Both the position numbers and the translations under genes were made by a program. The notes below the pieces were generated by a model. It had not been told where the DNA came from and searched no databases. It saw only the letters and a program-made list of their open reading frames with translations. A DNA stretch of 56,643 nucleotides from an uncultured Gammaproteobacteria bacterium (GTDB lineage Bacteria; Patescibacteriota; Patescibacteriia; SG8-24): NCBI GenBank assembly GCA_964486995.1, contig CAZAOV010000005.1, positions 13,903 to 70,545 on the forward strand. The letters are read 5' to 3'. Positions 5,250-46,715 of this stretch are shown here, one piece after another. Within the stretch, counting starts at the first letter, position 1. The number at the start of each line of letters is the position of its first letter.

Positions 5250-5750
5250 GTGCCTAACTCCAATTATGGTCCACAAAATGGATGGTTTTCTATCGTGCAT
5301 GTCGAAACGCTCAACGACGGCAACATCAATTGCCTGTCAGCCATGGTGTATGACCCGCAGGATAGCCAGCTGAAGGCGTTTTATGAGGCTCGTATCAGCC
5401 GGAATGCGATGGACGGATGCGATTCCCGGTGCGTCTCGCTCGAAGTGGCCATGTGCGGACTGGCCGATACCTGTCGTGGCACGTCACTGATGGCATTTGA
5501 GGTTGCTGCGGTTCGTGATTTTATTCAGGAAGGCTGTCAGACGGCCGGGATTGAATATCCGTTTATCGCTGGAAACGACGTTGATGTCAAAACTCTGGCT
5601 GACGTAAGCGTTGGTCCATTGGCGCAAGGTGCCGTTGGGTTGCGTCAGGCCGCCGAACGGCTTGGTATCCGAACGCTCCCGGCTGAGGATGCTCCGTCGT
5701 GGGGTGCGGTAGCCTGTTGGTACGTGCTACGGCGAATTATGAAGGTTTAA
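5250..5750 (+). CDS. Hypothetical Cys-rich protein
   Basis: 166-aa ORF with a GTG start 6 nt after GGAG and a terminator downstream. I recognised no domain. Confidence 0.6.
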   Translation: MPNSNYGPQNGWFSIVHVETLNDGNINCLSAMVYDPQDSQLKAFYEARISRNAMDGCDSRCVSLEVAMCGLADTCRGTSLMAFEVAAVRDFIQEGCQTAGIEYPFIAGNDVDVKTLADVSVGPLAQGAVGLRQAAERLGIRTLPAEDAPSWGAVACWYVLRRIMKV

Positions 5751-6135: not shown

Positions 6136-7572
6136 TTATAGTCCGATCGTCGCCGCCTCGACAGTTTCTCCTAACAGCAGGAGCGGTTCTCCCATTGGAT
6201 GCAGAGCCAGGGCCTTATCGTTGCAGGTAACAATCGAGGTCCAGTTATATCCGTATCCCAGGAATACTTCCTCGCTCGGTATGCGACGGCGAAAGCTATC
6301 GGAAATGACAAATACGGCCGGGTCATCAGGAGATTTGGCGAGCGTGCCTTCGGGGAAAGTAACTGGTTCACCGATTGAATACTCAACAATTTCTTCGGGT
6401 GAGGCTGGAATGACAGATCTTTCGCCAAATCGCGCCTTTAAGATTGCAATGTCCCAAATCGCATGGCGTACGCCATTTTCTACGTACCACACGCCTCCGG
6501 TGACCGAGTCCTGAATCAGCTGACCAAGCGGGTAAGCACTTTCCAACGTAATCATGTTGCCGAGGCTATAGTCCTCGATATCCTCTAGCGACACCTCTTC
6601 TACCTCTTCTGGGTTGAATCCAATTTCTCGGAACACATCTTCCGATGCTATCGGTCGTCGCTCGTCACCAATTAGCAAATAGATTACGCCGTTCTCGTCG
6701 CTTACCAGTGACAAATCCGGGAATGACAGCGGTTTGCCCGGATTGGCTTCTTCCAGTGCGCGGAATTCATATTCACCTAACACCACCGGAGCGCGATTGC
6801 CGAACCGTGACTCCAATACCGACTGACTTATTATCGGTCGGAACTTACGACCCTGAATTATGGCATATGCGCCGGTTTCCTCATTCATTACTAGCGTGCC
6901 GTCTGGAAACATAATTTCTCCGACACCTTCCCCCCACCATCGCTGCCAGATATTATAGAATAGCTTGTTGCCGTGAATGTGCGGCGTATAATTATACATT
7001 CCGGCAGTTGCCAAGTTTGCTGGCGTGACGTCTTTGTAGCTAATAGTATAGGTCACCTTCGGCTGTTTGAGGTAGTCCGGGACGTTAGACATGTACCAGT
7101 CCATCCAACCGGCAGCAGCATCAATTTGCTTGGCAAAGCCTTTATACTTTTGCGCCAGCGAACTGGATTTATAACAACCGTCACATAACGCGTATCCGGC
7201 AGCCCAATCCAGCTGATCTTTCGTAGGTTTGTCCGTTTCCACGATGCCCTGCTCTTTTTGCAGAATTGCGAGAACATATTTTGGATTGATGCTGTAGCGT
7301 TTGGCCGCATCATCGACGAGCTGGGCGGTTCCTTTGAGCAGACCGTCTATCGCGTCTACATCGAACTGATTATTTAAACCACCTTTTTCATCTAGGAAAT
7401 CATAGATTTCCTGAAAGTTCATCGCGTAAGCATCGCGCATTTCGTCATCCGACATAATATAGTTCGGATTGAAGGCAGCTGCCCGCGCTGGAAGCGGGAC
7501 GGCGCTTAATAACATGGCTGCGGTAGCCACGACCACGGTAATTTTTTTGCTGAAATTTTTGATGCTCATCAT
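6136..7572 (-). CDS. Secreted protein with four C-terminal ~55-aa repeats
   Basis: Signal peptide (AVPLPARAAA). The C-terminal half holds four repeats beginning FPDGTLV / FPDLSLV / YPLGQLI / FPEGTLA. Confidence 0.75.
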   Translation of the reverse strand: MMSIKNFSKKITVVVATAAMLLSAVPLPARAAAFNPNYIMSDDEMRDAYAMNFQEIYDFLDEKGGLNNQFDVDAIDGLLKGTAQLVDDAAKRYSINPKYVLAILQKEQGIVETDKPTKDQLDWAAGYALCDGCYKSSSLAQKYKGFAKQIDAAAGWMDWYMSNVPDYLKQPKVTYTISYKDVTPANLATAGMYNYTPHIHGNKLFYNIWQRWWGEGVGEIMFPDGTLVMNEETGAYAIIQGRKFRPIISQSVLESRFGNRAPVVLGEYEFRALEEANPGKPLSFPDLSLVSDENGVIYLLIGDERRPIASEDVFREIGFNPEEVEEVSLEDIEDYSLGNMITLESAYPLGQLIQDSVTGGVWYVENGVRHAIWDIAILKARFGERSVIPASPEEIVEYSIGEPVTFPEGTLAKSPDDPAVFVISDSFRRRIPSEEVFLGYGYNWTSIVTCNDKALALHPMGEPLLLLGETVEAATIGL

Positions 7573-9573: not shown

Positions 9574-9599
9574 AGGCCCGTCTCGGGCTTTTTCGTTTT
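9574..9599 (+). terminator. Rho-independent terminator
   Basis: gcccg-tct-cgggc followed by a T-rich run. Confidence 0.65.
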
Positions 9600-9607
9600 G
9601 GTCAATC

Positions 9608-9636
9608 TTGACAGTCGAATATTTCTGGTTTATTAT
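9608..9636 (+). promoter_or_regulatory. Near-consensus sigma70 promoter with direct-repeat operator-like sites
   Basis: TTGACA-17 nt-TATTAT. tcgaatat occurs at 9615 and 9636, and tatccga at 9641 and 9650. Confidence 0.7.
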
Positions 9637-9669
9637 CGAATATCCGAATTATCCGAGCTAGGAGGATCG

Positions 9670-10116
9670 ATGCCGCTGGTTAGTGACAAGAAAAGGCCCT
9701 ACACCATTCGCTTGAGCTTCGAAGGTATCGCTAGGCTGGATGCCCTGCGGGCTAAGCTGGGATTTCGGCGAACTGGCATTTTGCTGAAGGCGATTCGCGT
9801 TTGCGTTATGGCACACTGTTGCGGTGGTAACGAATCGCTATATATTAAGCAGAACGATGCTCAGATTGACCAACTGCGTTTGCACGGCTGTCAGGGGTTA
9901 GACTCAACGGATATGGAAACGTTTCCGGTGACGCTAATGGTCTCGGCGCGCGAGAAGGGTGCGTTGAAGCGCTGTGGTGCCAAAGCTGGCGGCATATTTG
10001 CCGGAGCCGAAACCGCACTCGCGTTTCTTGAAGACGTGCTGGCCAACGGTTTTCCCGAGTTGCTTGAGAAGCGCGGTAATCATTTTTACCCGGTTCTGCC
10101 ATGTCAACGGGGCTAG
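9670..10116 (+). CDS. Putative double ribbon-helix-helix DNA-binding protein
   Basis: GGAGG lies 4 nt upstream of the ATG. YTIRLSFEGIARLDALRAKLG and a second FPVTLMVSAREKGALKR segment both look RHH-like. Confidence 0.55.
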   Translation: MPLVSDKKRPYTIRLSFEGIARLDALRAKLGFRRTGILLKAIRVCVMAHCCGGNESLYIKQNDAQIDQLRLHGCQGLDSTDMETFPVTLMVSAREKGALKRCGAKAGGIFAGAETALAFLEDVLANGFPELLEKRGNHFYPVLPCQRG

Positions 10117-10634
10117 TCACAAGGGTTCGTTTTTGGCTCAGTAGCTTACTGCAAATCAGCATTCGTTATCAGGTCACCTGCGACCTATCTACGGAAGATG
10201 TGCGCCGGCTCGAAGAATGCCGTCATGTCGCGGAAAGGTATGCCGGCGGCAGTTCTGACGTTGCGATCATGCGTTTGGCACTGCGCGTTTATAGCCGCAT
10301 CATCTACAATGATTTGCCGACTTTGTACGCGTTTGATACTGGCGGGGAACGCAAGACCGTCGAATTGCGAGCGGATAAGGCCCCGACGTCGCAGGCAGAT
10401 TTAACGGTCAGTCAATTGCAGCTGTCGATTGGTCGCAAGTCACGTGCGGCAATTAAGCGACTGGCGGTAGAAACCGGACAGGACAATTGTGGCGTGCTCC
10501 GCAGCTCCTTGGCTACGTTGCATCGAGCAGCACGAGGTGACTATCAGTCGTTTCAGACTCGCGTGGCTGGGGGAGAATATGTGGAGTATGATTTAATCCG
10601 TTTGGTCCTGGGTAGCCGCTCAGCAAAACAATAA
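10101..10634 (+). CDS. Paralogous putative double ribbon-helix-helix protein
   Basis: Overlaps the previous gene by 16 nt. YQVTCDLSTEDVRRLEE and LQLSIGRKSRAAIKRLA segments show the same architecture as the upstream gene. Confidence 0.5.
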   Translation: MSTGLVTRVRFWLSSLLQISIRYQVTCDLSTEDVRRLEECRHVAERYAGGSSDVAIMRLALRVYSRIIYNDLPTLYAFDTGGERKTVELRADKAPTSQADLTVSQLQLSIGRKSRAAIKRLAVETGQDNCGVLRSSLATLHRAARGDYQSFQTRVAGGEYVEYDLIRLVLGSRSAKQ

Positions 10635-23600: not shown

Positions 23601-24446
23601 ATGATAGTTAAACCGACGATTATTGATACTCACGTCCATCTAGACGACTCTTTATACGAGCGGGATTTGGATGTCGTCGTTCGTCATGCGCAGGATGAGG
23701 GTGTTTGGATTATCACGGTTGGCAAGGACTATACCTCATCGGTACAGGCGGTAAACATCGCGGAGCGATACTCTAATGTTTTTGCTGCGATTGGTTTGCA
23801 TCCGCTCAAAATTGGCGGTGCAGTTCGTTCTGAGGATAAGTTGCTAGACACTAGTCGGTATATGGAACTAGCGAAGCATCCGAAAGTAGTGGCCTTGGGT
23901 GAAACTGGGCTTGATTTTCATGATTTGCCGCATGGTAAGCGAAAGAGCCCCGGGTTCCAACTTGCTGAACGGATCAAGGACAATCAGCGGAAAGTGTTTG
24001 CGCGTTTCCTTGAGATGTCACGCGAATTGCGATTGCCGCTGATGCTGCACTGTCGCGAAGCGCATAACGAAATGCTTAAGCTGCTCGAAACTTGGGATAG
24101 AGCAACCAGCGGCTTTGATTCTCGCGGTGTGGTTCATTGTTTTTCCGGAAATTGGAAGCAGGCCAAGCGATATTTCAATTTGGATTTCATGATTTCAGTC
24201 ACCGGTATCATGAGTCATGGCGGCCATCAGGGCGAATTACTGAAGAAGGCTCCGCTGTCTAGACTTTTGGCGGAAAGTGATTGTCCGCATTTAACGCCGA
24301 TACCATGGAGCATTCGTCGTAGTGAACCGGCCTATGTGCGCTCAACGGCCGCTAATCTTGCGGGATTACGCAAAATGAGCACGGCAGAGGTGGAGTCGCA
24401 GCTTTTACAAAACGCGCTACAGGTATTTAAAAGAATATCCAGATGA
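23601..24446 (+). CDS. TatD-family metal-dependent hydrolase
   Basis: IDTHVHLDD..., GETGLDF, HCR..., VHCFSG and ESDCPHL metal-ligand motifs. Confidence 0.9.
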   Translation: MIVKPTIIDTHVHLDDSLYERDLDVVVRHAQDEGVWIITVGKDYTSSVQAVNIAERYSNVFAAIGLHPLKIGGAVRSEDKLLDTSRYMELAKHPKVVALGETGLDFHDLPHGKRKSPGFQLAERIKDNQRKVFARFLEMSRELRLPLMLHCREAHNEMLKLLETWDRATSGFDSRGVVHCFSGNWKQAKRYFNLDFMISVTGIMSHGGHQGELLKKAPLSRLLAESDCPHLTPIPWSIRRSEPAYVRSTAANLAGLRKMSTAEVESQLLQNALQVFKRISR

Positions 24447-24651
24447 TATACGGCCCTAACATGGATACATAGGTAAGCGCAATGAATCCGTTGAAGCGGT
24501 CGTACCTGAAGGGTTCCGGTGTTTCGCTATTCGACATCGAGCAAATGACAGCACCCGGAGTTCTCCCGGCTTTTTTATTTGCATAATGATTTATGCGAAT
24601 TGCACCCTTTTAATCTGACCGTTATTCTGAAAATATTTATTGGCAAGAATT

Positions 24652-25554
24652 ATGACTATCGATCAACTATCACTAATTGACGTACACAGCCACATCAATT
24701 TTAGCGCGTACAAGGATGATGCGGAGCAGGTAATAAACCGAGCTTTGGAGCAGGGTATCGGGATGTTTGCGGTCGGTTCTCAATCGACTACCAGCCGGCG
24801 TGCTGTCGAGTATGCCCAGAAATACGACGGCGTTTGGGCAATTGTCGGTTTGCATCCGATTCACTTATTCGAGCAAGACGTTGATGAGAGCGAGGCCGGA
24901 GAAAATTTGGTCAGGTTTAAGAGTCGTGCCGAAACTGTAGATGAAGACATTTACGGCCCGATGGCCGGCAGTTCTGACAAGGTTGTTGGCATCGGTGAGA
25001 TTGGGCTGGATTATTATCACGTTCCTGACGGTGTCAATTGGGAGGAGTTTAAGCAGCTGCAGGTAGGTGCGTTTAAAAAACAAATAGATTTGGCGGTGGA
25101 ATTGGATTTGGCGATTATGATTCATAGCCGCAACGCACCAGATGAGTCAACCGATGTTCACGCGGATATTCGGTCGATACTAAAAGAATACACCGATGCC
25201 GGCAAGCAGTTACGGGGTAATGTGCATTGTTTTTCGGGTGGCGTGAAGGATATGGAGGAATATGTCGATTTGGGCTTTCACGTGTCGTTTACAGGTAACT
25301 TGACCTATAAGCCGCGCAAGGTGGATATCGAAAAAGGTGAATCGCTGCATGATGTAGCGCGTTCGGCGCCATTAGAGCGAATCTTGGTTGAAACCGACGC
25401 ACCGTACCTGACTCCGGTGCCGCACCGTGGAGAGCGAAATGAGCCAGCCTATGTACGGCATGTCGCAGAAAAGTTGGCCGAACTAAAAGAAATGAAGCCG
25501 GAAGATATGGAGCGGCAGCTCATGAAGAACACCCGAGAATTATTTCGCATATAA
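24652..25554 (+). CDS. TatD-family metal-dependent hydrolase (second paralog)
   Basis: IDVHSHINF, GEIGLDY, IHSR, VHCFSG and ETDAPYL. Confidence 0.9.
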   Translation: MTIDQLSLIDVHSHINFSAYKDDAEQVINRALEQGIGMFAVGSQSTTSRRAVEYAQKYDGVWAIVGLHPIHLFEQDVDESEAGENLVRFKSRAETVDEDIYGPMAGSSDKVVGIGEIGLDYYHVPDGVNWEEFKQLQVGAFKKQIDLAVELDLAIMIHSRNAPDESTDVHADIRSILKEYTDAGKQLRGNVHCFSGGVKDMEEYVDLGFHVSFTGNLTYKPRKVDIEKGESLHDVARSAPLERILVETDAPYLTPVPHRGERNEPAYVRHVAEKLAELKEMKPEDMERQLMKNTRELFRI

Positions 25555-25599
25555 GGTGTTAACACTCTGCGCCTACCCCAGAGTATTAACGCTCCCCGT

Positions 25600-25631
25600 A
25601 AAAAAGGAGACCCGTAAAAGGGTCTCTTTTG
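25600..25631. terminator. Bidirectional terminator
   Basis: gagaccc-gtaaaa-gggtctc with flanking A and T runs, between convergent genes. Confidence 0.75.
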
Positions 25632-25637
25632 ATGTGA

Positions 25638-26309
25638 TTAATTCCACTTGTCGTCGTCGTCGCTGTCGTCGCTGTCGTTGACATTGCCGCGACTACGTTG
25701 AGCAATGCCGGCGGCTGTATCGAACCAGCCAGCTTTCTCCATCAGGTAGCCGATATCACCGTCATCTGACCATCCACCAAGCGCATCATCTGAATTATCC
25801 GGCAGGTCGTCTTGCTGGCCATCGTTTTCGTGTTGGTTTGGGGGTGGCTTTTGGCCGTCCTCGTTATTGATGTCGTCCAGAATTTGTTCGGCTACGAGCT
25901 CGGCGATGACGTCGGTCGGGATGCCTGCGTCTGGCTTCATTGCGTTTTCGACCGCATAGACGGTCCACTTCTTGCGAAACACGATGAGGGCGCCCTTGCG
26001 TTTCAGGTCGGCAACTTCTGGCACCAACTCCTCGGTCTCGTGCATAATCATGGCGGCAATGAAGTCAACATAGCGCCGCAGTCTGTCGATGGTATCCTCG
26101 GGTGCAGAGCTGACGTTGTTCACGAAATAGAACACCTCTTTGCGCAGTTCTTCCATACGAAGCTGCATCACTGCGGCCATACGGCGAATCGGCTCCGGAA
26201 CCTGGGTCACATATAGTTCTTCGACTCCAGGCTCAATCTCAGGTTCCGCAAAATCGACGTTATCGATTTGCCTCATCTCTTTAAGCAGTCGTTGCATTTG
26301 AAGGGGCAT
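25638..26309 (-). CDS. Hypothetical protein with a strongly acidic C-terminal tail
   Basis: TAGGAGG SD. 223 aa ending ...NVNDSDDSDDDDKWN. I recognised no domain. Confidence 0.7.
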   Translation of the reverse strand: MPLQMQRLLKEMRQIDNVDFAEPEIEPGVEELYVTQVPEPIRRMAAVMQLRMEELRKEVFYFVNNVSSAPEDTIDRLRRYVDFIAAMIMHETEELVPEVADLKRKGALIVFRKKWTVYAVENAMKPDAGIPTDVIAELVAEQILDDINNEDGQKPPPNQHENDGQQDDLPDNSDDALGGWSDDGDIGYLMEKAGWFDTAAGIAQRSRGNVNDSDDSDDDDKWN

Positions 26310-26327
26310 AAGACCTCCTAGTCATGT

Positions 26328-26356
26328 ACCGTAGATTATTTGTTCGGTGATGTCAA
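26328..26356 (-). promoter_or_regulatory. Promoter candidate for the 223-aa gene
   Basis: On the minus strand, TTGACA-17 nt-TACGGT. Confidence 0.45.
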
Positions 26357-26415
26357 TGAGGCCGGAATGCGGGAAACGCAGAAATCAAAGTTGTTTTTTA
26401 TGCTTTTTCTCTAGA

Positions 26416-26440
26416 CAAAAACCGACTCAATTGAGTCGGT
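26416..26440 (-). terminator. Terminator of the AdSS-like gene
   Basis: Palindrome accgactcaattgagtcggt followed by a T run on the minus strand. Confidence 0.75.
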
Positions 26441-26448
26441 CGTCGTAA

Positions 26449-27963
26449 TTACACGCCATCACACATGATGCGTTGTCCTTGCTCGGGTCCGGTACCGATG
26501 TGAGTGACTTTGCAGTCGAGTTCTTTCTGGATGGCTTGGAGGTAGGATCGGGCAGTCCCGGAAAGCTGTTTGATTGCGGTTGCTCCGTAGATGTCCTCGT
26601 CCCAGCCGTCAATTTCGATATACAAGGGCGTGCATTTTTCGATTGGCACGTCGGCGGGGAGTGTCTTGAGCTGACGACCTTGATACTCGTACGCCACGCA
26701 GATCTTGAGCGGGCCGATGCCGGACAGGATATCGAGCCTCGTGACCGAGAGTTCGTTGATGTCCATGGTCAGCATGCCGGTGCGGGCAGAAACCAGATCG
26801 AGCCAACCCACGCGCCGCGGGCGACCGGAAATGGTTCCGAACTCGTGACCCTTATTGCGAATCAGGTCGCCGATGGCGTCATGCAGTTCGGTCGGAAACA
26901 CGCCCTCACCAACGTGTGAGTCATACGCCTTGATGGCCGAGATGATATGCGCACCGTCATTGGTGACCGAACTGGCGGGCAGACCAGAGAGCTCGAGGAT
27001 GCTCGGGATACTGATGAGCGACGTGGTCACCATAGGATAATCGCCGAACACCGGATGCAGCTTGCGGCCGTTAGTCGCCACGATGGCCATACCCTCTTTG
27101 CGTCGTCGATTCTCGGCCACAAGCGCATCAATGTCACGGACGTACTGCATGAGTTCGCGCTTGGTGTTCAGTAGCCACTCGAACAGCTCATCTCCCAACT
27201 TATCGAGTGAGAAGTCGCCCACGAAGTCATCGTACCGCTCGATTGCCTCAACCAGACGGTCCTCGTCACCGTCCCAGTCGAGGAAACGTTTGGCTACTTT
27301 TCTGATCGAAGTTTCATCCAGCTTGTTGAGGTGGTCGCCTGCGTACCCCGCCAGACCCTCGATTGTTGCTGTACCGAGGCGGTGTGCCATGCAAAATCGT
27401 CGTTCTAGCTCACGCTCGTTCAGAAGCAGGTCGCCCATGCGCAGGCAGTTGCGTCCGAAATAGGTCGAGGCTATTGGCCCCATTCCGTTCACTGTCGTGC
27501 CGATGTCGTCCGGCATACGAACGATTTCCTCAAGCATATCCTGGAGCAGATGCCAAGGCATGCCGAGTGCGGCGCGCGGCGAGATGGACAGGTTGCCGCG
27601 GAAGAATCCAGCGTCCTTGAATCGCTGAATTTCCTGCAGTAAACCGGTCTTGCCGTTGAACAGCTTGGCGAGTACCGGATCGCTGTACTTGTAAGCGTCC
27701 GGATAGATAAATGCCAGGTGACCTATGACCGCTTCGACTCCGCGGAAGGCGATGCCTTCCGGAAGCTGAGCGAATACCAGCTTGGAGCCTTCGCGATAAG
27801 CGGTGCGGCCGGAGCCGGCGCCGCCAATCGGCTTGCACATCAGTTGGATGCGACCGCTGGCGAGCAGGTCAATTAGAATCTTGGCCTTACCGGCATCGCC
27901 GCGCTTGGCGTCGATCAGGGCGAACAGTTCGCCATGTTCGGGGGATATAGAAAAGAATGTCAC
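26449..27963 (-). CDS. Divergent adenylosuccinate synthetase-family (PurA/PurZ-like) enzyme
   Basis: GTG start 7 nt after GGAGG. AdSS motifs are present: GDAGKAK (P-loop), GTTVNGMGP, KAYDSHVGEGVFPTEL, GHEFGTISGRPRRVGWLD, VTRLDIL and GTGP. The N-terminal half is divergent and about 70 aa longer than E. coli PurA. Confidence 0.8.
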   Translation of the reverse strand: MTFFSISPEHGELFALIDAKRGDAGKAKILIDLLASGRIQLMCKPIGGAGSGRTAYREGSKLVFAQLPEGIAFRGVEAVIGHLAFIYPDAYKYSDPVLAKLFNGKTGLLQEIQRFKDAGFFRGNLSISPRAALGMPWHLLQDMLEEIVRMPDDIGTTVNGMGPIASTYFGRNCLRMGDLLLNERELERRFCMAHRLGTATIEGLAGYAGDHLNKLDETSIRKVAKRFLDWDGDEDRLVEAIERYDDFVGDFSLDKLGDELFEWLLNTKRELMQYVRDIDALVAENRRRKEGMAIVATNGRKLHPVFGDYPMVTTSLISIPSILELSGLPASSVTNDGAHIISAIKAYDSHVGEGVFPTELHDAIGDLIRNKGHEFGTISGRPRRVGWLDLVSARTGMLTMDINELSVTRLDILSGIGPLKICVAYEYQGRQLKTLPADVPIEKCTPLYIEIDGWDEDIYGATAIKQLSGTARSYLQAIQKELDCKVTHIGTGPEQGQRIMCDGV

Positions 27964-28024
27964 CAGAACGCCTCCGTTTGTGAAATAACGTTACGTAGTT
28001 CTTTAGCTTAGCGGCCAGTTTCGG

Positions 28025-28053
28025 ACGTTAGCAGGGTGAGGTTGTGGTGTCAA
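28025..28053 (-). promoter_or_regulatory. Promoter candidate for the AdSS-like gene
   Basis: On the minus strand, TTGACA-17 nt-TAACGT. Confidence 0.5.
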
Positions 28054-28143
28054 GGTGTCGGAGTTGCCGCTTGAAAATTGTTTGACGCCAGTGCGAGTCA
28101 GGGAATTATTCACGCCAGCAACCAGCACAACTGGCAATTGAAC

Positions 28144-28175
28144 AAAAAACCAGCCGTGATATGTCACGGCTGGTT
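28144..28175 (-). terminator. Terminator of the 349-aa gene
   Basis: aaccagccgtga/tcacggctggtt 12-bp stem followed by a T run on the minus strand. Confidence 0.8.
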
Positions 28176-28202
28176 GAAGAAATGTCATCCAGTCGGGTGA
28201 GC

Positions 28203-29252
28203 CTACTTTGTTTCGGCCTTCAGCCTCTTGAGCTGTTCGGCCATGGACTGAGGTCGATACCCCGAGGGCTGCGGAGATTCGGGGAGCGGGGGGGCTGCTG
28301 GCTTCTCAGCGTGAGGGGTACCGTCACCGTGTCGCTCTCGGAACTTGTCGACCTGCGACTTCGGACACTCATCCTGTCGGGGCTTGCCCTGTCGGCGACC
28401 GCTCTCGTTGCCCCGCTTCTGTCCGTCCTGTCGACGACTGCGGCGACGGTCATGCCTGTCGCGCTGCGGTCGCTTAGCCGTGTGGAACTCAGCATTTGGA
28501 TACTTCTTCTTGAGTTCCTCGACCGACTCGAGAGGGCGGGCGATAACACGCCGGTCCTGCTCGATCAGGTTGACCTTGACGACGCGCCTGACCGGAACGG
28601 TCGCTCCCCAGGCCGGAAAGATCGGCTTTCCCTCGAAACGGCGATGGAAAGCGATGACACCCTCTTCATTCTTACGCCGGGGCTTGAAGCTGACCAAGAC
28701 GGCGTCGACATCCTCGGGCACCGTAAAGGCCCAGTCGACATCAGGATTGTTCGGGTCGGGTGCCGTAAGCGCATTGTCCGGCGGCTCGTGGAGCGGAAGA
28801 GCGGTGACCTTCCGGCCGTACCTGTCTTCCTCGAGCATATACTGCTGTTCGACGTCCACCCATACCCGCTTGCCGGGCATGAATCGAATCCGTCTCCCGG
28901 TTACCGGATGAATCGCGCTCACGTTCTTGCTGTCGTTGCGAACCTGGGGGCTAAGAACGGCGATTACCGTTCCGTCACACCAAGCGGGATCACCCGCTGC
29001 GGCGAGCGCGTTGGTGGTTTCCTCGGTCGGCTCGGCCACGTAGAAGTAGTGTCTGCCGACCTGAAGATCGTAGATGTGGCACCGGTACGGCACGCCGACG
29101 GTTGGGTTGAAATGAATGGAGTTGACAAGAATATCTCGCCCGCCCCACCTTGAAATTTTGCGGCCGCCCGCCTCCTCTCGGAAAATCAGGGCCGGCGGCT
29201 CGTCGCTGACGCGCTTCATGTTGACGCCATGGTTCTGATGCTGATGATTCAT
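28203..29252 (-). CDS. Hypothetical protein with an Arg/Lys/Gln-rich basic C-terminal tail
   Basis: GGGAGA lies 5 nt before the ATG at complement 29250-29252. The tail reads RPQRDRHDRRRSRRQDGQKRGNESGRRQGKPRQ. The tracked start at 29381 lies too close to the promoter -10. Confidence 0.7.
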   Translation of the reverse strand: MNHQHQNHGVNMKRVSDEPPALIFREEAGGRKISRWGGRDILVNSIHFNPTVGVPYRCHIYDLQVGRHYFYVAEPTEETTNALAAAGDPAWCDGTVIAVLSPQVRNDSKNVSAIHPVTGRRIRFMPGKRVWVDVEQQYMLEEDRYGRKVTALPLHEPPDNALTAPDPNNPDVDWAFTVPEDVDAVLVSFKPRRKNEEGVIAFHRRFEGKPIFPAWGATVPVRRVVKVNLIEQDRRVIARPLESVEELKKKYPNAEFHTAKRPQRDRHDRRRSRRQDGQKRGNESGRRQGKPRQDECPKSQVDKFRERHGDGTPHAEKPAAPPLPESPQPSGYRPQSMAEQLKRLKAETK

Positions 29253-29384
29253 GCAATTCTCCCAAACCACCGCACTGCAGTGGCGAGTGCGCCGCGATTT
29301 GCGGCAGTTGAAATTTCGTACTCGCCACCATGGCGAGCACAGCGTTTTTGGTCCGAACAGTTGTAAAAGACCGGATGACAAATG

Positions 29385-29413
29385 AATATACTATATCTTA
29401 ATCATCCTGTCAA
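29385..29413 (-). promoter_or_regulatory. Consensus-like promoter for the 349-aa gene
   Basis: On the minus strand, TTGACA-17 nt-TATATT. It predicts a ~125-nt hairpin-rich 5' UTR. Confidence 0.65.
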
Positions 29414-29443
29414 TCCCTTGCGGGGAATAAGAGGGTTATCCTC

Positions 29444-29472
29444 TTGATGCGATCAAATGCTTCGTGTATATT
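29444..29472 (+). promoter_or_regulatory. Divergent promoter giving a nearly leaderless mRNA for the 29483 ORF
   Basis: TTGATG-17 nt-TATATT, then 10 nt to the ATG at 29483. Inverted repeat aagagg/cctctt (29429-29445) overlaps the -35. Confidence 0.55.
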
Positions 29473-29482
29473 CGTATCGATT

Positions 29483-30061
29483 ATGTTTAAGCCAGAATCC
29501 AGACAGCTCAGCATTGCCGTCAAGGACAGAAAAGAGCGACTGTTGCGACGTCGCTTTATTTCATATGTAATCCGACAGAACGACAGTGGCGCATTTGAGT
29601 TGATTGATAATTACGAGGAGCTGAATCGAATAACACGGCAGTATATAAAGAAACAGGAGATTTTGCCGTTGCCGGCAACCATGAGTCGGTTTTTGCAAAA
29701 TGCTAGCATGGCTGAACTAGAAAACATGTGCAATTCTGTTCGACATGAACTGGAGCAAACCGGACTAAAGATATTTTTTGATCCCAGTCGGGATGGTGAA
29801 CTGCGACCAAAGTGGCGCTATCGCGTCCGGTCGCAGACCATGACTGACTATATGCTGGCGACACCTGAATCAAGAGACGCGGAAGACGCCTATGACGAAA
29901 ACCCCAATCAGGTTCCATATAGAATCATTCAGCTGGTAAAACGAAATTATCAGTATCACATGACTCCTGAATGGAAGATTTGGTTCGGTCGAAAAGTGCA
30001 GCGCAAGCGCGAGCAGATTATACTGGACATAATTCAGAAAAATATAATGCGAGTGCAGTAA
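29483..30061 (+). CDS. Hypothetical protein
   Basis: 192-aa ORF (tracked from 29444). AT-richer than the neighbouring minus-strand genes. I recognised no domain. Confidence 0.6.
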   Translation: MFKPESRQLSIAVKDRKERLLRRRFISYVIRQNDSGAFELIDNYEELNRITRQYIKKQEILPLPATMSRFLQNASMAELENMCNSVRHELEQTGLKIFFDPSRDGELRPKWRYRVRSQTMTDYMLATPESRDAEDAYDENPNQVPYRIIQLVKRNYQYHMTPEWKIWFGRKVQRKREQIILDIIQKNIMRVQ

Positions 30062-30138
30062 AAAAACGCTCGACCACGCCAGAGTTCGATTTGCGACCAG
30101 CTTATATGACAAAACTGTGGAGAACTCTTTGAGTGGGG

Positions 30139-30167
30139 TTGACGCGGTTTTTTTATATCTTTATACT
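30139..30167 (+). promoter_or_regulatory. Near-consensus sigma70 promoter of the atp operon
   Basis: TTGACG-17 nt-TATACT. Confidence 0.7.
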
Positions 30168-30222
30168 ATGGGCGGCAAGTTGCTCTTAATGGGTGACTTG
30201 CGCTTCATTTTTTACTGACAGT

Positions 30223-30525
30223 ATGGCTACTTCCGAGCAGGACAGACAATACATGATGCTGGGGCTTAGAATCGTTGGTGAATTCGGTGTGATAATTGCC
30301 GCACCGGTGGTTATTTTAGCTATGCTTGGCAAATGGCTGGATACTCGCTATGATACCGCTCCGATGTTTTTGGTGGCTGGATTCATTTTTGCGGCGCTGT
30401 TGTCCGGCATCAGCATCTACCGACGCGCCAAACGTTTTGGCAAAGAGTATTTATCAATTGAGAAGACTGATCAGAATGATTCGAGCATAGACGGCGAAGA
30501 AGACACTAAGCAGCTCAACAATTAA
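30223..30525 (+). CDS. AtpZ/AtpI-like small membrane protein of ATP synthase operons
   Basis: Two TM helices with GKWLDTRYDT between them, in first position of the atp operon. Confidence 0.7.
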   Translation: MATSEQDRQYMMLGLRIVGEFGVIIAAPVVILAMLGKWLDTRYDTAPMFLVAGFIFAALLSGISIYRRAKRFGKEYLSIEKTDQNDSSIDGEEDTKQLNN

Positions 30526-38679: not shown

Positions 38680-39180
38680 GTGTGCTTGCCAAAACGCAAC
38701 AAGATAGACAGGCGATCCAAGAAACGACGCCGACGACCACATCATAACTATCGCGTGCCCAACTGGCATGGGGTCAAGTTCATGAGTCGGCGCAATCTAA
38801 GCGAAGTAAGCGAAGGCTGTCCTCACGAGTTCAACGGTTATTGCTACCAAACCTACGGTGAGGCAGAGGTGGCTCGCTTGCTGACGGAAATGGGGATTGA
38901 TTTTACGCCAGACGTGACTATTCCTATACCGCCAAAGGGCGGTGCAAAAAAACCGCGTAGCTACGTACCGGATTTTGTCTTCAACGGTAGCGAGTACGTC
39001 TGGACAGAGGAAGACGGCACCGAGCAAATCATTCACGGCATCGAGTGCAAGGGCGCCAACGTTAAATCGGAGAAAGCCAGGGCGCTTTACGGCAAGCGCG
39101 GCATTAACGTTATCGTCGTGTTTGAAGCCGAGATTGATTTTTATAGTCGCCGCGGCAGGCTTCCGCTGAGGCTCAGATAA
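38680..39180 (+). CDS. Paralogous PD-(D/E)XK nuclease-fold protein with a basic N-terminal segment
   Basis: YGE...VPDFVF...IHGIECKG in the same spacing as the upstream paralog. N-terminal KKRRRRPHH. The start is GTG 38680 or TTG 38686, next to GGGAGG. Confidence 0.6.
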   Translation: MCLPKRNKIDRRSKKRRRRPHHNYRVPNWHGVKFMSRRNLSEVSEGCPHEFNGYCYQTYGEAEVARLLTEMGIDFTPDVTIPIPPKGGAKKPRSYVPDFVFNGSEYVWTEEDGTEQIIHGIECKGANVKSEKARALYGKRGINVIVVFEAEIDFYSRRGRLPLRLR

Positions 39181-42790: not shown

Positions 42791-43081
42791 ATGATTGAAC
42801 GAATCGATAAATTAATGTCTTCGTCGAAAAAAATCGGCGGAATATCAAAGCAAATTAAGACCGCTATGATTGCGGACGTAGCATTAGGCGTGCTACAGAT
42901 AAAATTCGGCCACAACGAAAAAAAAATGCGTGTACGTCGAGTGAAGGCCGGCACGATATCGGTCACCTGTGAATGTTCGGTACTAGCTGAAGAAATACGT
43001 CTCCACGAGCCTGACCTGATTGCCGAAATTAATAATCAGCTGAAGGATCAGAAAATTGAGCGCATTGTTGCAACAACGTAG
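42791..43081 (+). CDS. DUF721/DciA-like small protein
   Basis: 96 aa. The pattern ...VKAGTISVTCECSVLAEEIRLHEPDLIAEIN resembles the DUF721 family. Confidence 0.5.
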   Translation: MIERIDKLMSSSKKIGGISKQIKTAMIADVALGVLQIKFGHNEKKMRVRRVKAGTISVTCECSVLAEEIRLHEPDLIAEINNQLKDQKIERIVATT

Positions 43082-43097
43082 CGATAAGGAGATATCA

Positions 43098-43619
43098 TTG
43101 TCCGATTTGGTCAAAAAGTTCCTTAAAGACATAGAGGTCGCGATGATTGAGCCAACTTACGCCAAGGCTCAGGAATTACGCAAAAGATTAATGCTTTCGA
43201 GTTCACTGCTAGGCGTTGATGGCTACAGGTTACTGTCGGTTGAGCTTGATAAGTTGGCGGTGATGGCCGCGATTCGTGACGCGGAAAAGTGGACCGTGCA
43301 TTATCGAGCTAGTTTGCAGGTTAGGCCGTTGAATCACAAGAAATTGTTCAAGTGTGCCCACTGGGCTCAGAACGCTTGCCAGCTAGCTCTTAAAACGCTT
43401 AGCGCCGATTTGTTGCGTATGGCGAAAAAGACAGTTTCTAGGCGCGAAGTACGCTATAAACTAAGTGTAGCCAAGCATCCGGACCTGCTCATGGCTCGCG
43501 TCGGGGAGATTCTCCGCATCCTCGACGAAGATGAAAGCCATTTCACCGAAGACGGGGCAGTTCTGATCATGCTGACCTTTATCCATCTGGGCGCGCTCGG
43601 CCAGATACACTCACGATAA
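43098..43619 (+). CDS. Hypothetical helical protein
   Basis: The ORF is tracked from TTG 43056. AAGGAG 6 nt before TTG 43098 favours the shorter form. I recognised no domain. Confidence 0.5.
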   Translation: MSDLVKKFLKDIEVAMIEPTYAKAQELRKRLMLSSSLLGVDGYRLLSVELDKLAVMAAIRDAEKWTVHYRASLQVRPLNHKKLFKCAHWAQNACQLALKTLSADLLRMAKKTVSRREVRYKLSVAKHPDLLMARVGEILRILDEDESHFTEDGAVLIMLTFIHLGALGQIHSR

Positions 43620-45394: not shown

Positions 45395-46201
45395 ATGCGA
45401 GCATTTCGACCTCAACAAATTACGATTATTGCCGCGGTGTTTGCGGCTTTGCTGATTTTGCTGCATTTAGCGGGTGTTTTGTCATGGGTGTCTCAAATGG
45501 TTGCCTCGGCTACATATCGTCTGGCCGCACCATTACACCGAATTGGTGCGGGCATGGCCTTAGCCGGAGAGGATGGTGAGTGTGCCTGTGCGGCGGATTT
45601 AAATGCCGAACTGGAACAGGTGATTATCGACAACTCCAAATTACGTACTTTGGCCGCAGAGAACGCCGCGCTAAAAACGGCCTTAGACTTCCAGGAACGC
45701 GAGTCTGACAAGCCGATTCTGGCTAGAGTCGTAGCAAAGTCGTCAGACATCACCAATCGCGGCTTGGTTATAGACAGAGGTCAAGGTGACGGCATCGAAC
45801 CGGGTCAGCCTGTAGTGGTGGATGATGGATTGCTGATTGGCAAGATTAAAACAGTTCGCCGTAAATCCTCGACGGTTTTACTGCTTACGGATTCTTTAAG
45901 CCGTTTGGCGGTGTCGTTGCAGGGCGGTAGCGGAACGACCGGTTTACTGGAAGGTGATCGAGGACTCAGCATGGTAATCTCGCTCATACCGCAGAATGAA
46001 GTGGTGAACGTTGGTGATGTGGTGGTTACTTCTGGTTTGGAGCCGGGCGTGCGTCGAGGCTTGATAGTTGGTGTCGTGGAGACAGTTCATAAAGATGACC
46101 AAGAGCCGTTTCAAACCGCTACCGTGTCTCCATTAGGTCACGCTGAACATCCAGTCTTTGTTCAGGTGCTAACATCTCACGACGGCGGCTATGCGCAATG
46201 A
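45395..46201 (+). CDS. mreC: Rod-shape determining protein MreC
   Basis: TM anchor, coiled-coil (LRTLAAENAALKTAL), then beta domain VVVDDGLLIGKI...VVTSGL. Confidence 0.9.
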   Translation: MRAFRPQQITIIAAVFAALLILLHLAGVLSWVSQMVASATYRLAAPLHRIGAGMALAGEDGECACAADLNAELEQVIIDNSKLRTLAAENAALKTALDFQERESDKPILARVVAKSSDITNRGLVIDRGQGDGIEPGQPVVVDDGLLIGKIKTVRRKSSTVLLLTDSLSRLAVSLQGGSGTTGLLEGDRGLSMVISLIPQNEVVNVGDVVVTSGLEPGVRRGLIVGVVETVHKDDQEPFQTATVSPLGHAEHPVFVQVLTSHDGGYAQ

Positions 46202-46715
46202 TGTAGCTACATATTCACTAGTTGCATTTTTAGCGTTGGTTCAGGCGGCGCTAATTTCAGCTTGGCCTCTCACCGTGTCATTGTTGTGTCTGCCGCTAAT
46301 CATGGTTTCTGCCCTAGCGTTAAACCTGAAACCGAAGACAGCCGCAATAACTGCGGTGATTTCCGGGCTGATTCTGGATTTGCTTTCCCCAACGTTTTTC
46401 GGTCTGCATGTCATAGCGGCATTATTATCGGTCAGCATCACATCCATATTGTTATTTCGCGTTTTGACGCATCACACAGTTAGAGCGGTTGCCGGTGTAA
46501 ATGCGGCGGTTTTCCTGCTGTACCATCTTCTGTTGTTTCTGCTCAACAGTTCGTTGAGAGCCCTGACTGCCGGTTCGCTAGTTCATCCCGCTTCGGGTCG
46601 CGCCTTGATGCTGGTGCTTATGGCCATGCCAATTCAAGTGGCCATCGCCGTGGCAGCCTCCTTGTTATTGCGCGGCTTCCGCGGATACACCAGCCGGTTC
46701 ATACTCGTGAAATAA
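46191..46715 (+). CDS. mreD: Rod-shape determining protein MreD-like membrane protein
   Basis: Polytopic membrane protein that overlaps the mreC stop by 11 nt, in the conserved mreBCD position. Confidence 0.75.
   Translation: MRNDVATYSLVAFLALVQAALISAWPLTVSLLCLPLIMVSALALNLKPKTAAITAVISGLILDLLSPTFFGLHVIAALLSVSITSILLFRVLTHHTVRAVAGVNAAVFLLYHLLLFLLNSSLRALTAGSLVHPASGRALMLVLMAMPIQVAIAVAASLLLRGFRGYTSRFILVK

What the first reader, a model, noticed from the sequence alone, without database searches (positions are those of the whole stretch)
26449..27963. Adenylosuccinate-synthetase-family enzyme with substituted catalytic motif positions, in an unrelated gene context
The 504-aa product is clearly AdSS-fold. 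Its C-terminal half keeps KAYDSHVGEGVFPTEL, GHEFGTISGRPRRVGWLD, VTRLDIL and GTGP. The N-terminal catalytic region differs from canonical PurA as I recall it for E. coli. The P-loop GDEGKGK becomes GDAGKAK. GGHNAGHT becomes GGAGSGRT, and the spacing to the downstream PSGI/PEGI motif is identical, so the alignment is secure. That replaces the IMP-phosphate Asn38 and the catalytic acid His41 with Gly and Arg. GAQG (Gln224) appears as ATNG. About 70 extra residues are inserted between motifs. No purB or other purine gene is nearby. The gene has its own promoter, SD and terminator and sits between unknown proteins. Phage PurZ shows that AdSS homologs can evolve new nucleotide chemistry. This could therefore be a neofunctionalised ligase (different nucleotide or amino-acid substrate) rather than a housekeeping purA.
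Basis: partly seen in the sequence, partly recalled or inferred. Interest (0 to 1): 0.72.

Follow-up and report, generated by a model that had tools for sequence, protein, structure and literature searches.

The report
Divergent adenylosuccinate-synthetase homolog with altered catalytic residues
A small group of Patescibacteria carries an intact, selectively maintained relative of the purine enzyme adenylosuccinate synthetase. Three active-site residues kept by all characterised relatives are replaced in it, so it probably does the same type of reaction in an altered way or on a different nucleotide.

Summary
ORF 26449-27963 (-) encodes a 504-aa protein with the adenylosuccinate synthetase (AdSS) fold: Pfam PF00709 E=3e-81, AlphaFold2 pLDDT 85.5, Foldseek TM 0.85-0.89 to bacterial and eukaryotic PurA. 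It scores far below the NCBIfam purA equivalog cut-offs (265 vs 402 bits).

Profile, MAFFT and structure-consistent alignments agree on the substitutions: E14A, G17A, N38G, A39S, H41R and Q224N. D13, K16, T128/T129, R143, T239, V273, R303/R305 and D333 are kept. N38 is invariant in 249 canonical homologs and H41 is present in 247 of 249. Phage PurZ (phiVC8) also keeps N38, H41 and Q224.

The protein belongs to a tiny, isolated Patescibacteria clade; bit scores drop from 653 to 190 outside it. The clade sits on the longest internal branch of the family tree. It is under strong purifying selection (core dN/dS 0.08).

It is not PurZ, because D13 is kept. No purB lies in the window or in related contigs. 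The neighbouring genes are lineage-only ORFans in conserved synteny, which says nothing about function.

My best reading is a still-catalytic, GTP-dependent nucleotide:aspartate ligase with a remodelled acceptor pocket. Whether it still uses IMP cannot be decided in silico. I classify it as a new variant of a known kind, of moderate interest.

The parts
26449..27963 (-). AdSS-like gene, 504 aa, GTG start, stop included
   Evidence: Pfam PF00709 scores 273.7 bits. AF2 pLDDT is 85.5. Foldseek top hits are PurA structures.
28048..28053 (-). -35-like hexamer TTGACA
   Evidence: Read from the sequence. Conserved in the L002 ortholog's upstream region. The pair was not called by the consensus scan because the -10 is weak.
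28025..28030 (-). -10-like hexamer TAACGT, 17 nt after the -35
   Evidence: L002 has TAATGT at the same place. Inferred promoter, not demonstrated.
27971..27975 (-). Shine-Dalgarno GGAGG, 7 nt upstream of the GTG
   Evidence: GGAGG is also present in L002 and L003.
26420..26441 (-). Terminator-like hairpin plus T-run after the stop codon
   Evidence: 9-bp stem, 5 GC pairs.
27880..27900 (-). P-loop GDAGKAK (E. coli GDEGKGK). D13 and K16 are kept; E14 is Ala and G17 is Ala.
   Evidence: Invariant in all 5 clade members that cover it.
27802..27825 (-). GGAGSGRT (E. coli GGHNAGHT): N38G, A39S, H41R
   Evidence: N38 is 249/249 and H41 is 247/249 in canonical sequences.
27469..27504 (-). IGTTVNGMGPIA. 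T128/T129 (IMP phosphate contacts) are kept; R131 is Asn.
27019..27078 (-). ATNGRKLHPVFGDYPMVTTS (E. coli [20 protein letters not shown]). Substitutions are Q224N, A223T, T226R, L227K, D229H and D231V. T239 is kept.
   Evidence: Invariant in the 4 full-length clade members.
26797..26850 (-). GHEFGTISGRPRRVGWLD, the L-aspartate/ribose loop. G298, R303 and R305 are kept. T300 is Ile/Val, which 57 of 249 canonical sequences also show (53 Val, 4 Ile). T301 is Ser/Thr.
26725..26745 (-). VTRLDIL, the guanine-specificity motif. D333 is kept. K331 is Arg, which 11 of 249 canonical sequences also have.
27643..27693 (-). Insertion 1 relative to E. coli PurA (residues 91-107), modelled with low confidence
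27199..27333 (-). Insertion 2 (residues 211-255), part of a helical segment 186-262 that is hypervariable between close relatives
   Evidence: pN is 0.49 here against 0.074 in the core.

Best explanation
The gene encodes a functional, lineage-restricted offshoot of the adenylosuccinate synthetase family that has diverged from housekeeping PurA. It most likely still follows the AdSS reaction scheme.

Proposed mechanism:
- The protein acts as a dimer; the Arg that reaches into the partner's nucleotide site (E. coli R143) is kept.
- It binds GTP-Mg2+. The P-loop Lys (E. coli K16), the Mg ligands D13 and G40, and the guanine-specifying D333 are kept.
- It binds a ribonucleoside 5'-monophosphate. 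T128/T129, T239, R143', G127, V273 and R303 are kept.
- Asp23 (E. coli D13) acts as base and the gamma-phosphate is transferred to a carbonyl oxygen of the nucleobase.
- The amino group of L-aspartate then displaces phosphate. The GxxxGRPRR loop is kept.

What has changed is the wall around the base and phosphoryl-intermediate site. Arg replaces the catalytic acid His41. Gly replaces Asn38, Asn replaces Gln224 and Ala replaces Glu14. New Lys, Arg and His residues appear at positions 10, 11, 226, 227 and 229.

I infer that Arg53 (the H41 position) takes over transition-state charge stabilisation. I also infer that the acceptor nucleotide is bound differently from IMP, or is not IMP at all. That would make this a neo- or sub-functionalised ligase rather than an ordinary purA.

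Shown here: the fold, the residue states, isolation of the clade, the long stem branch and purifying selection. Inferred only: catalytic competence, the role of the Arg, and any change of substrate.
For: Fold and family: PF00709 E=3e-81. AF2 pLDDT is 85.5 and pTM 0.86. Foldseek gives TMt 0.85-0.89 to bacterial and eukaryotic AdSS.

Not an equivalog: 265.2 bits against a cut-off of 402 (NF002223), and 244.6 against 395.55 (TIGR00184).

Residue states: of 65 positions at least 95% conserved in 249 canonical AdSS, the clade keeps 46. Twelve are replaced by a residue fixed in the clade: G8D, E14A, G17A, N38G, A39S, H41R, I133M, Y137A, G222A, A223T, S240T and R272H. Seven are variable. Canonical sequences deviate at a median of 0 positions (95th percentile 5).

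Nucleotide contacts: seven of the eight residues that hydrogen-bond IMP in H. pylori AdSS (PMC11571797) are kept. Only N38 is lost.

Comparison with PurZ: phiVC8 PurZ, the characterised neofunctionalised homolog examined here, still has N38, H41 and Q224.

Isolation: exhaustive phmmer over 1.84 billion representatives drops from 653 bits (clade) to 190 bits, with no intermediates. The word-indexed search shows the same gap.

Tree: the clade's stem is the longest internal branch of an NJ tree of 253 sequences, at 0.565 against a median of 0.022 and a next-longest of 0.295. Mean identity to canonical AdSS is 33%, against 46% among canonical sequences.

Selection: the core has dN/dS 0.08 at dS about 1 against the closest relative, L022. 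Other pairs give at most 0.22. Identity between genomes is 59-71%, comparable to MetRS and TatD.

Convergence: an unrelated outlier, P0257, shares G8D, A39S, H41R and Q224N, although it ranks 208 of 249 in overall identity to the clade. This hints at a coordinated change of the site.
Against: There is no biochemical or genetic evidence. No ligand-bound model or coordinates were available, so pocket geometry is inferred from alignment only.

All changes could be compensatory within an enzyme that still makes adenylosuccinate. H41R occurs in P0206, which is otherwise canonical. K331R, S414G, T300V and G17A each occur in some canonical sequences.

Patescibacterial proteins are generally fast-evolving, which explains part of the low identity. 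The net charge change over all substituted conserved positions is only +2. The gene context gives no functional clue.
Confidence: 0.45

Rival explanations
1. It is simply this lineage's adenylosuccinate synthetase (IMP + L-Asp + GTP gives adenylosuccinate). It would be used for purine salvage and interconversion. The active site is unusual but functionally equivalent: Arg stands in for His41, and other changes compensate for the loss of N38 and Q224.
For: The catalytic base D13, K16 and the Mg ligands are kept. So are seven of eight IMP contacts, the Asp loop R303/R305 and the guanine-specific D333. H41R is found in the otherwise canonical homolog P0206. NCBI already names the ortholog P0003 adenylosuccinate synthetase. 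There is only one AdSS homolog per contig. Strong purifying selection fits a housekeeping role. To my knowledge purA is commonly unlinked to purB, so the absence of purB nearby is uninformative.
Against: N38 is invariant in 249 of 249 canonical sequences, H41 in 247 and E14 in 243, and all three residues except E14 are retained even in PurZ. From my own recollection of E. coli mutagenesis by the Fromm and Honzatko laboratories in the 1990s (not retrieved here), H41N is inactive and E14A, N38 and Q224 mutants lose about 100-fold or more in kcat. The stem branch is the longest in the family. The protein fails all five NCBIfam AdSS equivalog models. Most genomes of the phylum (93%) lack de novo nucleotide synthesis (bioRxiv 10.64898/2026.06.21.733656). 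That is only weakly relevant, because AdSS also serves salvage.
Confidence: 0.35
2. It is a pseudoenzyme. The protein would still bind GTP and/or a nucleotide but would no longer catalyse ligation, serving instead as a sensor, regulator or structural partner.
For: The catalytic acid His41 is lost, along with N38, E14 and Q224. A hypervariable surface insertion (residues 186-262, pN 0.49 against 0.074 in the core) could be an interaction surface. The flanking genes are fast-evolving lineage-specific proteins.
Against: The residues that pseudoenzymes usually lose are all kept: D13, K16, the Mg-binding G40, T129, R143, R303, R305 and D333. The substituted motifs themselves are invariant across the clade. 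Of the canonical near-invariant positions, 58 of 65 are invariant within the clade, against 53% of all columns.
Confidence: 0.15
3. It is a decaying gene, a misassembly or a recent foreign insertion (for example a prophage-borne PurZ-like gene).
For: GC3 of the gene is raised: 0.69 against about 0.54 for most window genes. One partial homolog, P0005 on L023, breaks off after residue 280 on a 2-kb contig.
Against: The reading frame is intact in eight contigs from independent samples, and dN/dS is 0.08-0.22. Synteny is the same in four genomes whose synonymous sites are saturated. There is no relative in IMG/VR or in GenBank phages beyond canonical purA. The PHROG PurZ family scores lower than Pfam PurA. 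D13 is not Ser. The GC3 rise is similar to that of the ATP synthase genes in each genome.
Confidence: 0.03

Closest known systems
Bacterial/eukaryotic adenylosuccinate synthetase PurA (EC 6.3.4.4; for example E. coli 1CG0, B. anthracis 4M0G, H. pylori 6ZXQ)
   Same: The fold is the same: Foldseek TMt 0.85-0.89, with 4M0G the best sequence hit at E=6e-58. The long-form architecture is shared. Also kept are D13, K16, K18, G40, T42, T128/T129, R143, R147, T239, V273, G298, R303, R305, D333 and the GxGP motif.
   Different: E14A, G17A, Q34I, N38G, A39S, H41R, R131N, E221V/L, A223T, Q224N, D229H, D231V, R272H and R419Q. There are about 75 extra residues at four sites. Identity is 33% against about 46% among canonical enzymes. 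The score is below every NCBIfam equivalog cut-off.
Phage PurZ / PurZ0 (2-aminoadenylosuccinate, i.e. deoxyguanylosuccinate, synthase; PDB 6FM1, 7ODX, 7VF6)
   Same: Both are AdSS-superfamily members that depart from PurA in the catalytic region. Both have Asp instead of Gly at E. coli position 8.
   Different: PurZ replaces D13 by Ser in 100% of phage sequences (PMC12884076) but keeps N38, H41 and Q224. This protein does the opposite. PurZ is short (about 340-370 aa), is derived from archaeal-type enzymes, and loses the R303 contact to the ribose 2'-OH (PMC8342488). This protein is long-form and keeps R303. Foldseek TMq to PurZ is only 0.42-0.55. There is no phage context and no viral relatives.
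Uncharacterised AdSS variants P0257 (contig L014) and P0206 (GCA_964373425.1, L017/L018)
   Same: Both have Arg at the H41 position. P0257 also shares G8D, A39S, Q224N and the GPEQ motif (R419Q) with the clade.
   Different: Both keep N38, D229/D231, R272 and T300/T301 and have normal length (437-438 aa). P0206 is otherwise canonical. Neither is specifically related to the clade overall (ranks 208 and 195 of 249 by identity). Their gene neighbourhoods are unrelated.

Membership tests
AdSS superfamily (Pfam PF00709) | Profile HMM score above the gathering threshold | tested here: met
   273.7 bits against a cut-off of 27, E=3.1e-81.
AdSS superfamily (Pfam PF00709) | AdSS three-dimensional fold | tested here: met
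   AF2 pLDDT 85.5, pTM 0.86. The 31 best Foldseek PDB hits are all AdSS, E down to 1.8e-36, TMt 0.80-0.89.
Canonical PurA (NCBIfam equivalogs NF002223, TIGR00184, NF010355, NF010357, NF003295) | Score at or above the curated equivalog cut-off | tested here: not met
   265.2 vs 402; 244.6 vs 395.55; 170.4 vs 445; 159.9 vs 700; 100.3 vs 368.
Canonical PurA | Catalytic base Asp13 and P-loop Lys16 | tested here: met
   D23 and K26 align to D13 and K16 and are invariant in the clade.
Canonical PurA | Catalytic acid His41 | tested here: not met
   Arg in all clade members. His in 247 of 249 canonical sequences.
Canonical PurA | Asn38 (contact to the IMP 5'-phosphate and the 40s loop) | tested here: not met
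   Gly in all clade members. Asn in 249 of 249 canonical sequences. It is an IMP contact in H. pylori AdSS.
Canonical PurA | Gln224 (contact to the IMP base and the 6-phosphoryl group) | tested here: not met
   Asn in the clade. Gln in 231 of 249 canonical sequences and Asn in 9 of 249.
Canonical PurA | Remaining IMP contacts (G127, T129, T239, V273, R303, R143 from the partner subunit) | tested here: met
   All are conserved.
Canonical PurA | L-aspartate loop (G298, T301, R303, R305) | tested here: met
   The loop reads GT(I/V)(S/T)GRPRR. T301 is Ser or Thr, and R303 and R305 are kept.
Canonical PurA | Guanine nucleotide specificity (D333 in the (T/N)KxD motif, S414-x-G-P) | tested here: met
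   TRLD with D333 kept. K331R occurs in 11 and S414G in 58 of 249 canonical sequences.
Canonical PurA | Catalyses IMP + Asp + GTP to adenylosuccinate; complements a purA mutant | not testable with these tools
   Needs an enzyme assay or a genetic test.
Canonical PurA | Is the only purA of the genome and co-occurs with purB | not testable with these tools
   Only 56.6 kb of the genome plus contigs of up to about 21.5 kb from relatives were available, and none holds purB or a second purA. The whole MAGs could not be read.
Phage PurZ/PurZ0 | Asp13 replaced by Ser (100% of phage PurZ, PMC12884076) | tested here: not met
   Asp is kept. phiVC8 PurZ shows GSTGKG at this motif.
Phage PurZ/PurZ0 | Short archaeal-type architecture, with closest structural similarity to PurZ or P. 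horikoshii AdSS | tested here: not met
   504 aa. TMq to PurZ is 0.42-0.55, against 0.64-0.76 to bacterial and eukaryotic PurA. The PHROG PurZ family gives 1e-48 against Pfam PurA 3e-81.
Phage PurZ/PurZ0 | Viral genome context (datZ, mazZ, dpoZ) | tested here: not met
   The context is chromosomal, between TatD/MetRS and the ATP synthase operon. There are no IMG/VR relatives.

The most novel reading that the evidence does not exclude
The clade may be a third functional class of the AdSS superfamily, after PurA and PurZ. It would be a GTP-dependent aspartate ligase of host-dependent Patescibacteria that acts on a nucleotide other than IMP, for instance another oxo-purine or oxo-pyrimidine ribonucleotide scavenged from host RNA. 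It would use an Arg-based rather than a His-based catalytic apparatus. The partly convergent variant P0257 hints that the R41/S39/N224/D8 signature marks this new specificity.
Probability: 0.3. Interest if true: 0.8.

Novelty: new variant of a known kind. Interest (0 to 1): 0.55.

Why it matters
AdSS is among the most conserved enzymes of purine metabolism. Its N38/H41/Q224 residues are essentially invariant and survive even in phage PurZ, which changed both substrates. A homolog that replaced all three, yet is held under strong purifying selection, has two possible meanings. Either the textbook catalytic acid is dispensable, with Arg substituting for it, or it points to unrecognised nucleotide chemistry.

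The host lineage (Patescibacteria) mostly cannot make nucleotides and lives on scavenged ones. A remodelled nucleotide ligase could therefore reveal how these organisms rebalance their nucleotide pools.

There is also a practical point. Current annotation as 'adenylosuccinate synthetase' may mislead metabolic reconstructions of these genomes.

Tried and rejected
- **PADLOC:** only a 16-bit BrxB match over the insertion (E=0.002). I judged it spurious.
- **PHROGs:** only the PurZ family, and weaker than Pfam PurA.
- **Riboswitch or leader RNA:** Rfam at E<=1 over 25400-30300 found nothing. Alignment of the four upstream regions shows no conserved element beyond the upstream gene's terminator, the promoter (window and L002 only) and the Shine-Dalgarno sequence.
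- **Viral origin:** no clade member in IMG/VR. GenBank phages hold only canonical purA.
- **GTDB representative genomes:** the single scan returned only canonical PurA at 28-34% identity. Its exact-peptide patterns could have missed 60%-identical relatives.
- **Metagenome scan:** one extra locus, identical in protein to P0003.
- **Neighbour function:** p223, p349 and p192 have no Pfam, NCBIfam, PADLOC or PHROG hits. Their only homologs are from the same lineage. PDB profile searches found nothing. The AF2 model of p349 was unusable (pLDDT 42), so no fold search was run on it.
- **Shared neighbours between the clade and the P0257/P0206 loci:** none.
- **'More electropositive pocket' argument:** dropped as a general claim, because the net change over all substituted conserved positions is only +2.
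- **Literature on His41, Asn38 and Gln224 mutagenesis:** searches retrieved nothing usable. Those statements rest on my recollection.
- **tRNA or integration signs:** no tRNA in the window.
Full report
**What is there**

The minus-strand ORF 26449-27963 (GTG start, 504 aa) is the only long ORF at this place that makes sense. It hits Pfam PF00709 (Adenylsucc_synt) with 273.7 bits, E=3e-81. It also hits 22 distinct PDB AdSS sequences, best B. anthracis 4M0G at E=6e-58.

An AlphaFold2 model built on 43 sequences is confident (pLDDT 85.5, pTM 0.86). Its 31 best Foldseek matches in the PDB are bacterial and eukaryotic AdSS (TMt 0.80-0.89). The short archaeal enzyme comes next, and phage PurZ/PurZ0 come well behind (TMq 0.42-0.55).

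**The substitutions are real and securely aligned**

HMMER places 'iggagsgrtay' on 'qggnnaghtiv' with high posterior probability. MAFFT alignments with E. coli PurA, fetched from NC_000913.3, give the same register. There is no gap between this motif and PSGI/PEGI.

In E. coli literature numbering the clade shows these changes:

- P-loop and preceding strand: Q10K, W11R, E14A, G17A.
- 40s loop: Q34I, N38G, A39S, H41R.
- Around residue 224: E221V/L, G222A, A223T, Q224N, T226R, L227K, D229H, D231V.
- Elsewhere: R131N, S240T, R272H, R419Q.

No Asn or His lies anywhere in residues 40-70, so the catalytic residues are not 'conserved elsewhere'.

Among 249 canonical homologs collected in two searches, N38 is 249/249, H41 247/249, E14 243/249, E221 248/249 and Q224 231/249. 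Of the 65 positions that are at least 95% conserved in those 249 sequences, the clade keeps 46, replaces 12 with a clade-fixed residue and varies at 7. Canonical sequences deviate at a median of 0 and a 95th percentile of 5 positions.

**What is kept**

- The catalytic base and Mg ligand D13, the Mg-binding G40, and the P-loop residues K16 and K18, plus T42.
- T128/T129, T239 and R143. R143 is contributed by the partner subunit, so the dimer is probably kept.
- G127, V273, G298, R303, R305 and D333.
- The GxGP motif.

H. pylori AdSS hydrogen-bonds IMP through the equivalents of D13, N38, G127, T129, T239, V273, R303 and R143' (PMC11571797). Seven of these eight are kept here.

T300V/I, K331R, S414G and G17A each occur in a minority of canonical enzymes. 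The GTP site, the L-Asp loop and the phosphate and ribose part of the nucleotide site therefore look intact. The changes concentrate on the three segments that, in the E. coli structures as I recall them, surround the purine O6 and 6-phosphoryl group and the mobile 40s loop.

**Extra residues**

The roughly 75 extra residues are spread over four sites: the N-terminal 9 aa, residues 91-107, residues 211-255 and residues 335-338. Other AdSS with fully canonical motifs (P0121, P0139, P0143, P0181, P0196) also carry inserts at the 211-255 site. The insert alone is therefore not diagnostic.

Against the closest relative (L022) the helical segment 186-262 is hypervariable: pN is 0.49, with synonymous sites saturated. 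The rest of the protein is almost invariant: pN 0.074, dS 0.96, dN/dS 0.08.

**How isolated the clade is**

The word-indexed search of 5.8 billion proteins found the query itself, three full-length relatives (P0002 71%, P0003 60%, P0004 59%) and a fragment. It then dropped from 642 to 222 bits. The exhaustive phmmer run over 1.84 billion representatives shows the same gap (653 to 190 bits) and no intermediates.

Further copies come from L019 (identical in protein to P0003), L022 (about 78% identity over the 355 residues present) and the fragment P0129. NCBI names P0003 'adenylosuccinate synthetase [Patescibacteria group bacterium]'.

Mean identity to canonical AdSS is 33%, against 46% among canonical sequences. 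In an NJ tree of 253 sequences the stem of the clade is the longest internal branch: 0.565, against a median of 0.022 and a next-longest of 0.295. The NJ sister (P0145/P0240) is probably a long-branch artefact.

The protein fails all five NCBIfam AdSS equivalog cut-offs, for example 265 against 402 bits.

**It is a maintained gene, not a relic**

The frame is intact in eight contigs from independent samples. dN/dS is 0.22 against L002 (dS about 1) and at most 0.14 elsewhere, where dS is saturated. The core value against L022 is 0.08.

Protein identity between the four genomes is 59-71%. That is in the range of MetRS (67-70%), the two TatD proteins (64-78%) and CvpA in the same genomes. Within the clade 58 of the 65 canonical near-invariant positions are invariant, against 53% of all columns.

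**Signals**

GGAGG lies 7 nt before the GTG. A 9-bp hairpin with a T-run follows the stop codon (26441-26420). The upstream gene has its own strong terminator (28175-28148).

A perfect -35 TTGACA (28053-28048) is followed after 17 nt by a weak -10, TAACGT. The pair is conserved in L002 but was not called by the consensus scan. No Rfam family and no conserved leader structure lies upstream.

**Context**

The order is the same in all related contigs:

- the ATP synthase operon;
- a divergently transcribed protein of about 190-210 aa;
- a protein of about 350-370 aa;
- the AdSS-like gene;
- a protein of about 220 aa;
- then TatD, TatD, CvpA, MetRS and ThiI.

The three flanking proteins have no family, defence-system, phage-family or PDB match. 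They occur only in this lineage.

Because all available genomes are close relatives, this synteny says nothing about functional linkage, and each gene has its own terminator. The window otherwise holds ordinary housekeeping genes of a Patescibacteria-like genome: SUF, MreBC/PBP2, Ddl/Alr, aminoacyl-tRNA synthetases, and Ham1/RdgB at 50723-51319. No purB and no second purA is detectable by tblastn in the window or in any related locus.

Most genomes of the phylum (93%) lack de novo nucleotide synthesis, and their nucleotide-synthesis genes have scattered phylogenetic distributions (bioRxiv 10.64898/2026.06.21.733656). A PurA homolog here is therefore not a default housekeeping expectation. AdSS could still serve salvage.

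**Comparison with PurZ**

In phage PurZ the D13 position is Ser in 100% of sequences, while 99% of PurA keep Asp (PMC12884076). PurZ also loses the R303 contact to the 2'-OH (PMC8342488). I fetched phiVC8 PurZ and added it to the family alignment. It reads GSTGKG, NMPNAGHT and EGAQG, meaning D13S with N38, H41 and Q224 all kept.

The window protein is the mirror image: D13 and R303 kept, N38, H41 and Q224 replaced. It is therefore not a PurZ. It departs from PurA at positions that PurZ, the characterised neofunctionalised homolog examined here, did not touch.

**Other Arg41 variants**

Two of the 249 'canonical' sequences also have Arg at position 41.

- P0206 (GCA_964373425.1) is otherwise canonical. 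This suggests that Arg may be tolerated in a working AdSS.
- P0257 is itself an outlier, with 16 deviations at the 65 near-invariant positions. It shares G8D, A39S, H41R and Q224N, plus R419Q, with the clade. That is the highest overlap of any sequence: 213 of 249 share none of the 22 clade-fixed derived states. Yet it ranks only 208 of 249 by overall identity, and its neighbourhood is unrelated.

This looks like convergence, or very deep common ancestry, on a co-ordinated change. One possible reading is that a longer Arg at 41 is paired with a shorter Asn at 224 around the phosphoryl site. That interpretation is inference.

**Mechanism I think most likely**

The most likely mechanism is the AdSS scheme run by a remodelled site. 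A dimeric enzyme binds GTP-Mg and a ribonucleoside 5'-monophosphate. Asp23 (D13) acts as base, the carbonyl oxygen is phosphorylated, and L-Asp displaces the phosphate. Arg53 would stabilise charge in place of the His41 acid.

My recollection of E. coli work from the Fromm and Honzatko laboratories (not retrieved) is that H41N is inactive and that E14A, N38 and Q224 mutants lose about two orders of magnitude or more in kcat. If that is right, losing all four while the gene stays under strong constraint is easier to explain by a changed acceptor or binding mode than by drift.

My estimates:

| Reading | Probability |
|---|---|
| Catalytically active but functionally diverged ligase | about 0.45 |
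| Still a genuine IMP-using AdSS with compensated substitutions | about 0.35 |
| Non-catalytic nucleotide-binding protein | about 0.15 |
| Artefact, relic or mobile PurZ-like gene | about 0.03 |

These readings cannot be separated without whole-genome inventories and biochemistry.

**Verdict**

The neofunctionalisation reading is plausible and strengthened by the isolation of the clade, the long stem branch, the purifying selection and the contrast with PurZ, but it is not demonstrated. I rate this a new variant of a known enzyme family, of moderate interest.

Noticed in passing
window 28203-29252 (-); orthologs L002:8620-9699, L003:2149-3240, L006:8670-9773, L022:209-1279: The lineage-specific ~350-aa gene next to the AdSS-like gene keeps GC 0.61-0.66 and GC3 0.72-0.82 in every genome. 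Background GC ranges from 0.44 to 0.57, and neighbouring genes in L003 and L006 have GC3 of 0.28-0.51. The protein is only about 30% identical between genomes whose ATP synthase beta subunit is about 90% identical, and it carries an Arg/Gly-rich low-complexity insert. It is nevertheless under purifying selection (dN/dS 0.19 against L022). The cause of the persistent GC3 excess is unexplained.
   Followed up: partly
window 27178-27408 (residues 186-262 of the AdSS-like protein): The helical insertion segment is hypervariable between the two closest genomes (pN 0.49, with indels). The rest of the protein is nearly invariant (pN 0.074). This could be a rapidly evolving surface or merely an unconstrained loop.
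   Followed up: partly
L014:8001-9314 (P0257); L017:6524-7840 and L018:8001-9317 (P0206): Two other AdSS homologs from unrelated contigs carry Arg at the His41 position. P0257 also shares G8D, A39S, Q224N and R419Q with the window clade. P0206 is otherwise canonical.
   Followed up: partly
L023:1039-1905 (P0005, GCA_029935835.1): This clade member stops after about 280 homologous residues. The remaining DNA of the 2-kb contig encodes no AdSS sequence in any frame. It is either a chimeric contig end or a truncated copy.
   Followed up: partly
window 25638-29252: The three genes p223, AdSS-like and p349 are the only minus-strand genes between about 19 and 38 kb of a window whose genes and GC skew otherwise run on the plus strand. 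Each has its own terminator hairpin. Their GC3 (0.63-0.72) is the highest in the window.
   Followed up: partly
window 28161-29153 (+): A 330-aa ORF lies antisense to p349, and other long antisense ORFs overlap the AdSS-like gene. They are most likely by-products of the high GC content, not genes.
   Followed up: no
window 23601-25554: Two tandem TatD-family hydrolase genes (281 and 304 aa) lie next to CvpA and MetRS. The arrangement is conserved in all related contigs.
   Followed up: no
window 50723-51319: A Ham1/RdgB-type ITP/XTP pyrophosphatase (PF01725, E=1e-40) is the only purine-nucleotide enzyme found in the window besides the AdSS-like gene. It would produce IMP or XMP from non-canonical NTPs.
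   Followed up: no
window 1-56643: ARAGORN finds no tRNA gene in 56.6 kb. Several further ORFs have no Pfam match: 4182-4766, 5250-5750, 6136-7572, 9598-10634, 38680-39180, 43056-43619, 46191-46715 and 55552-56574.
   Followed up: no
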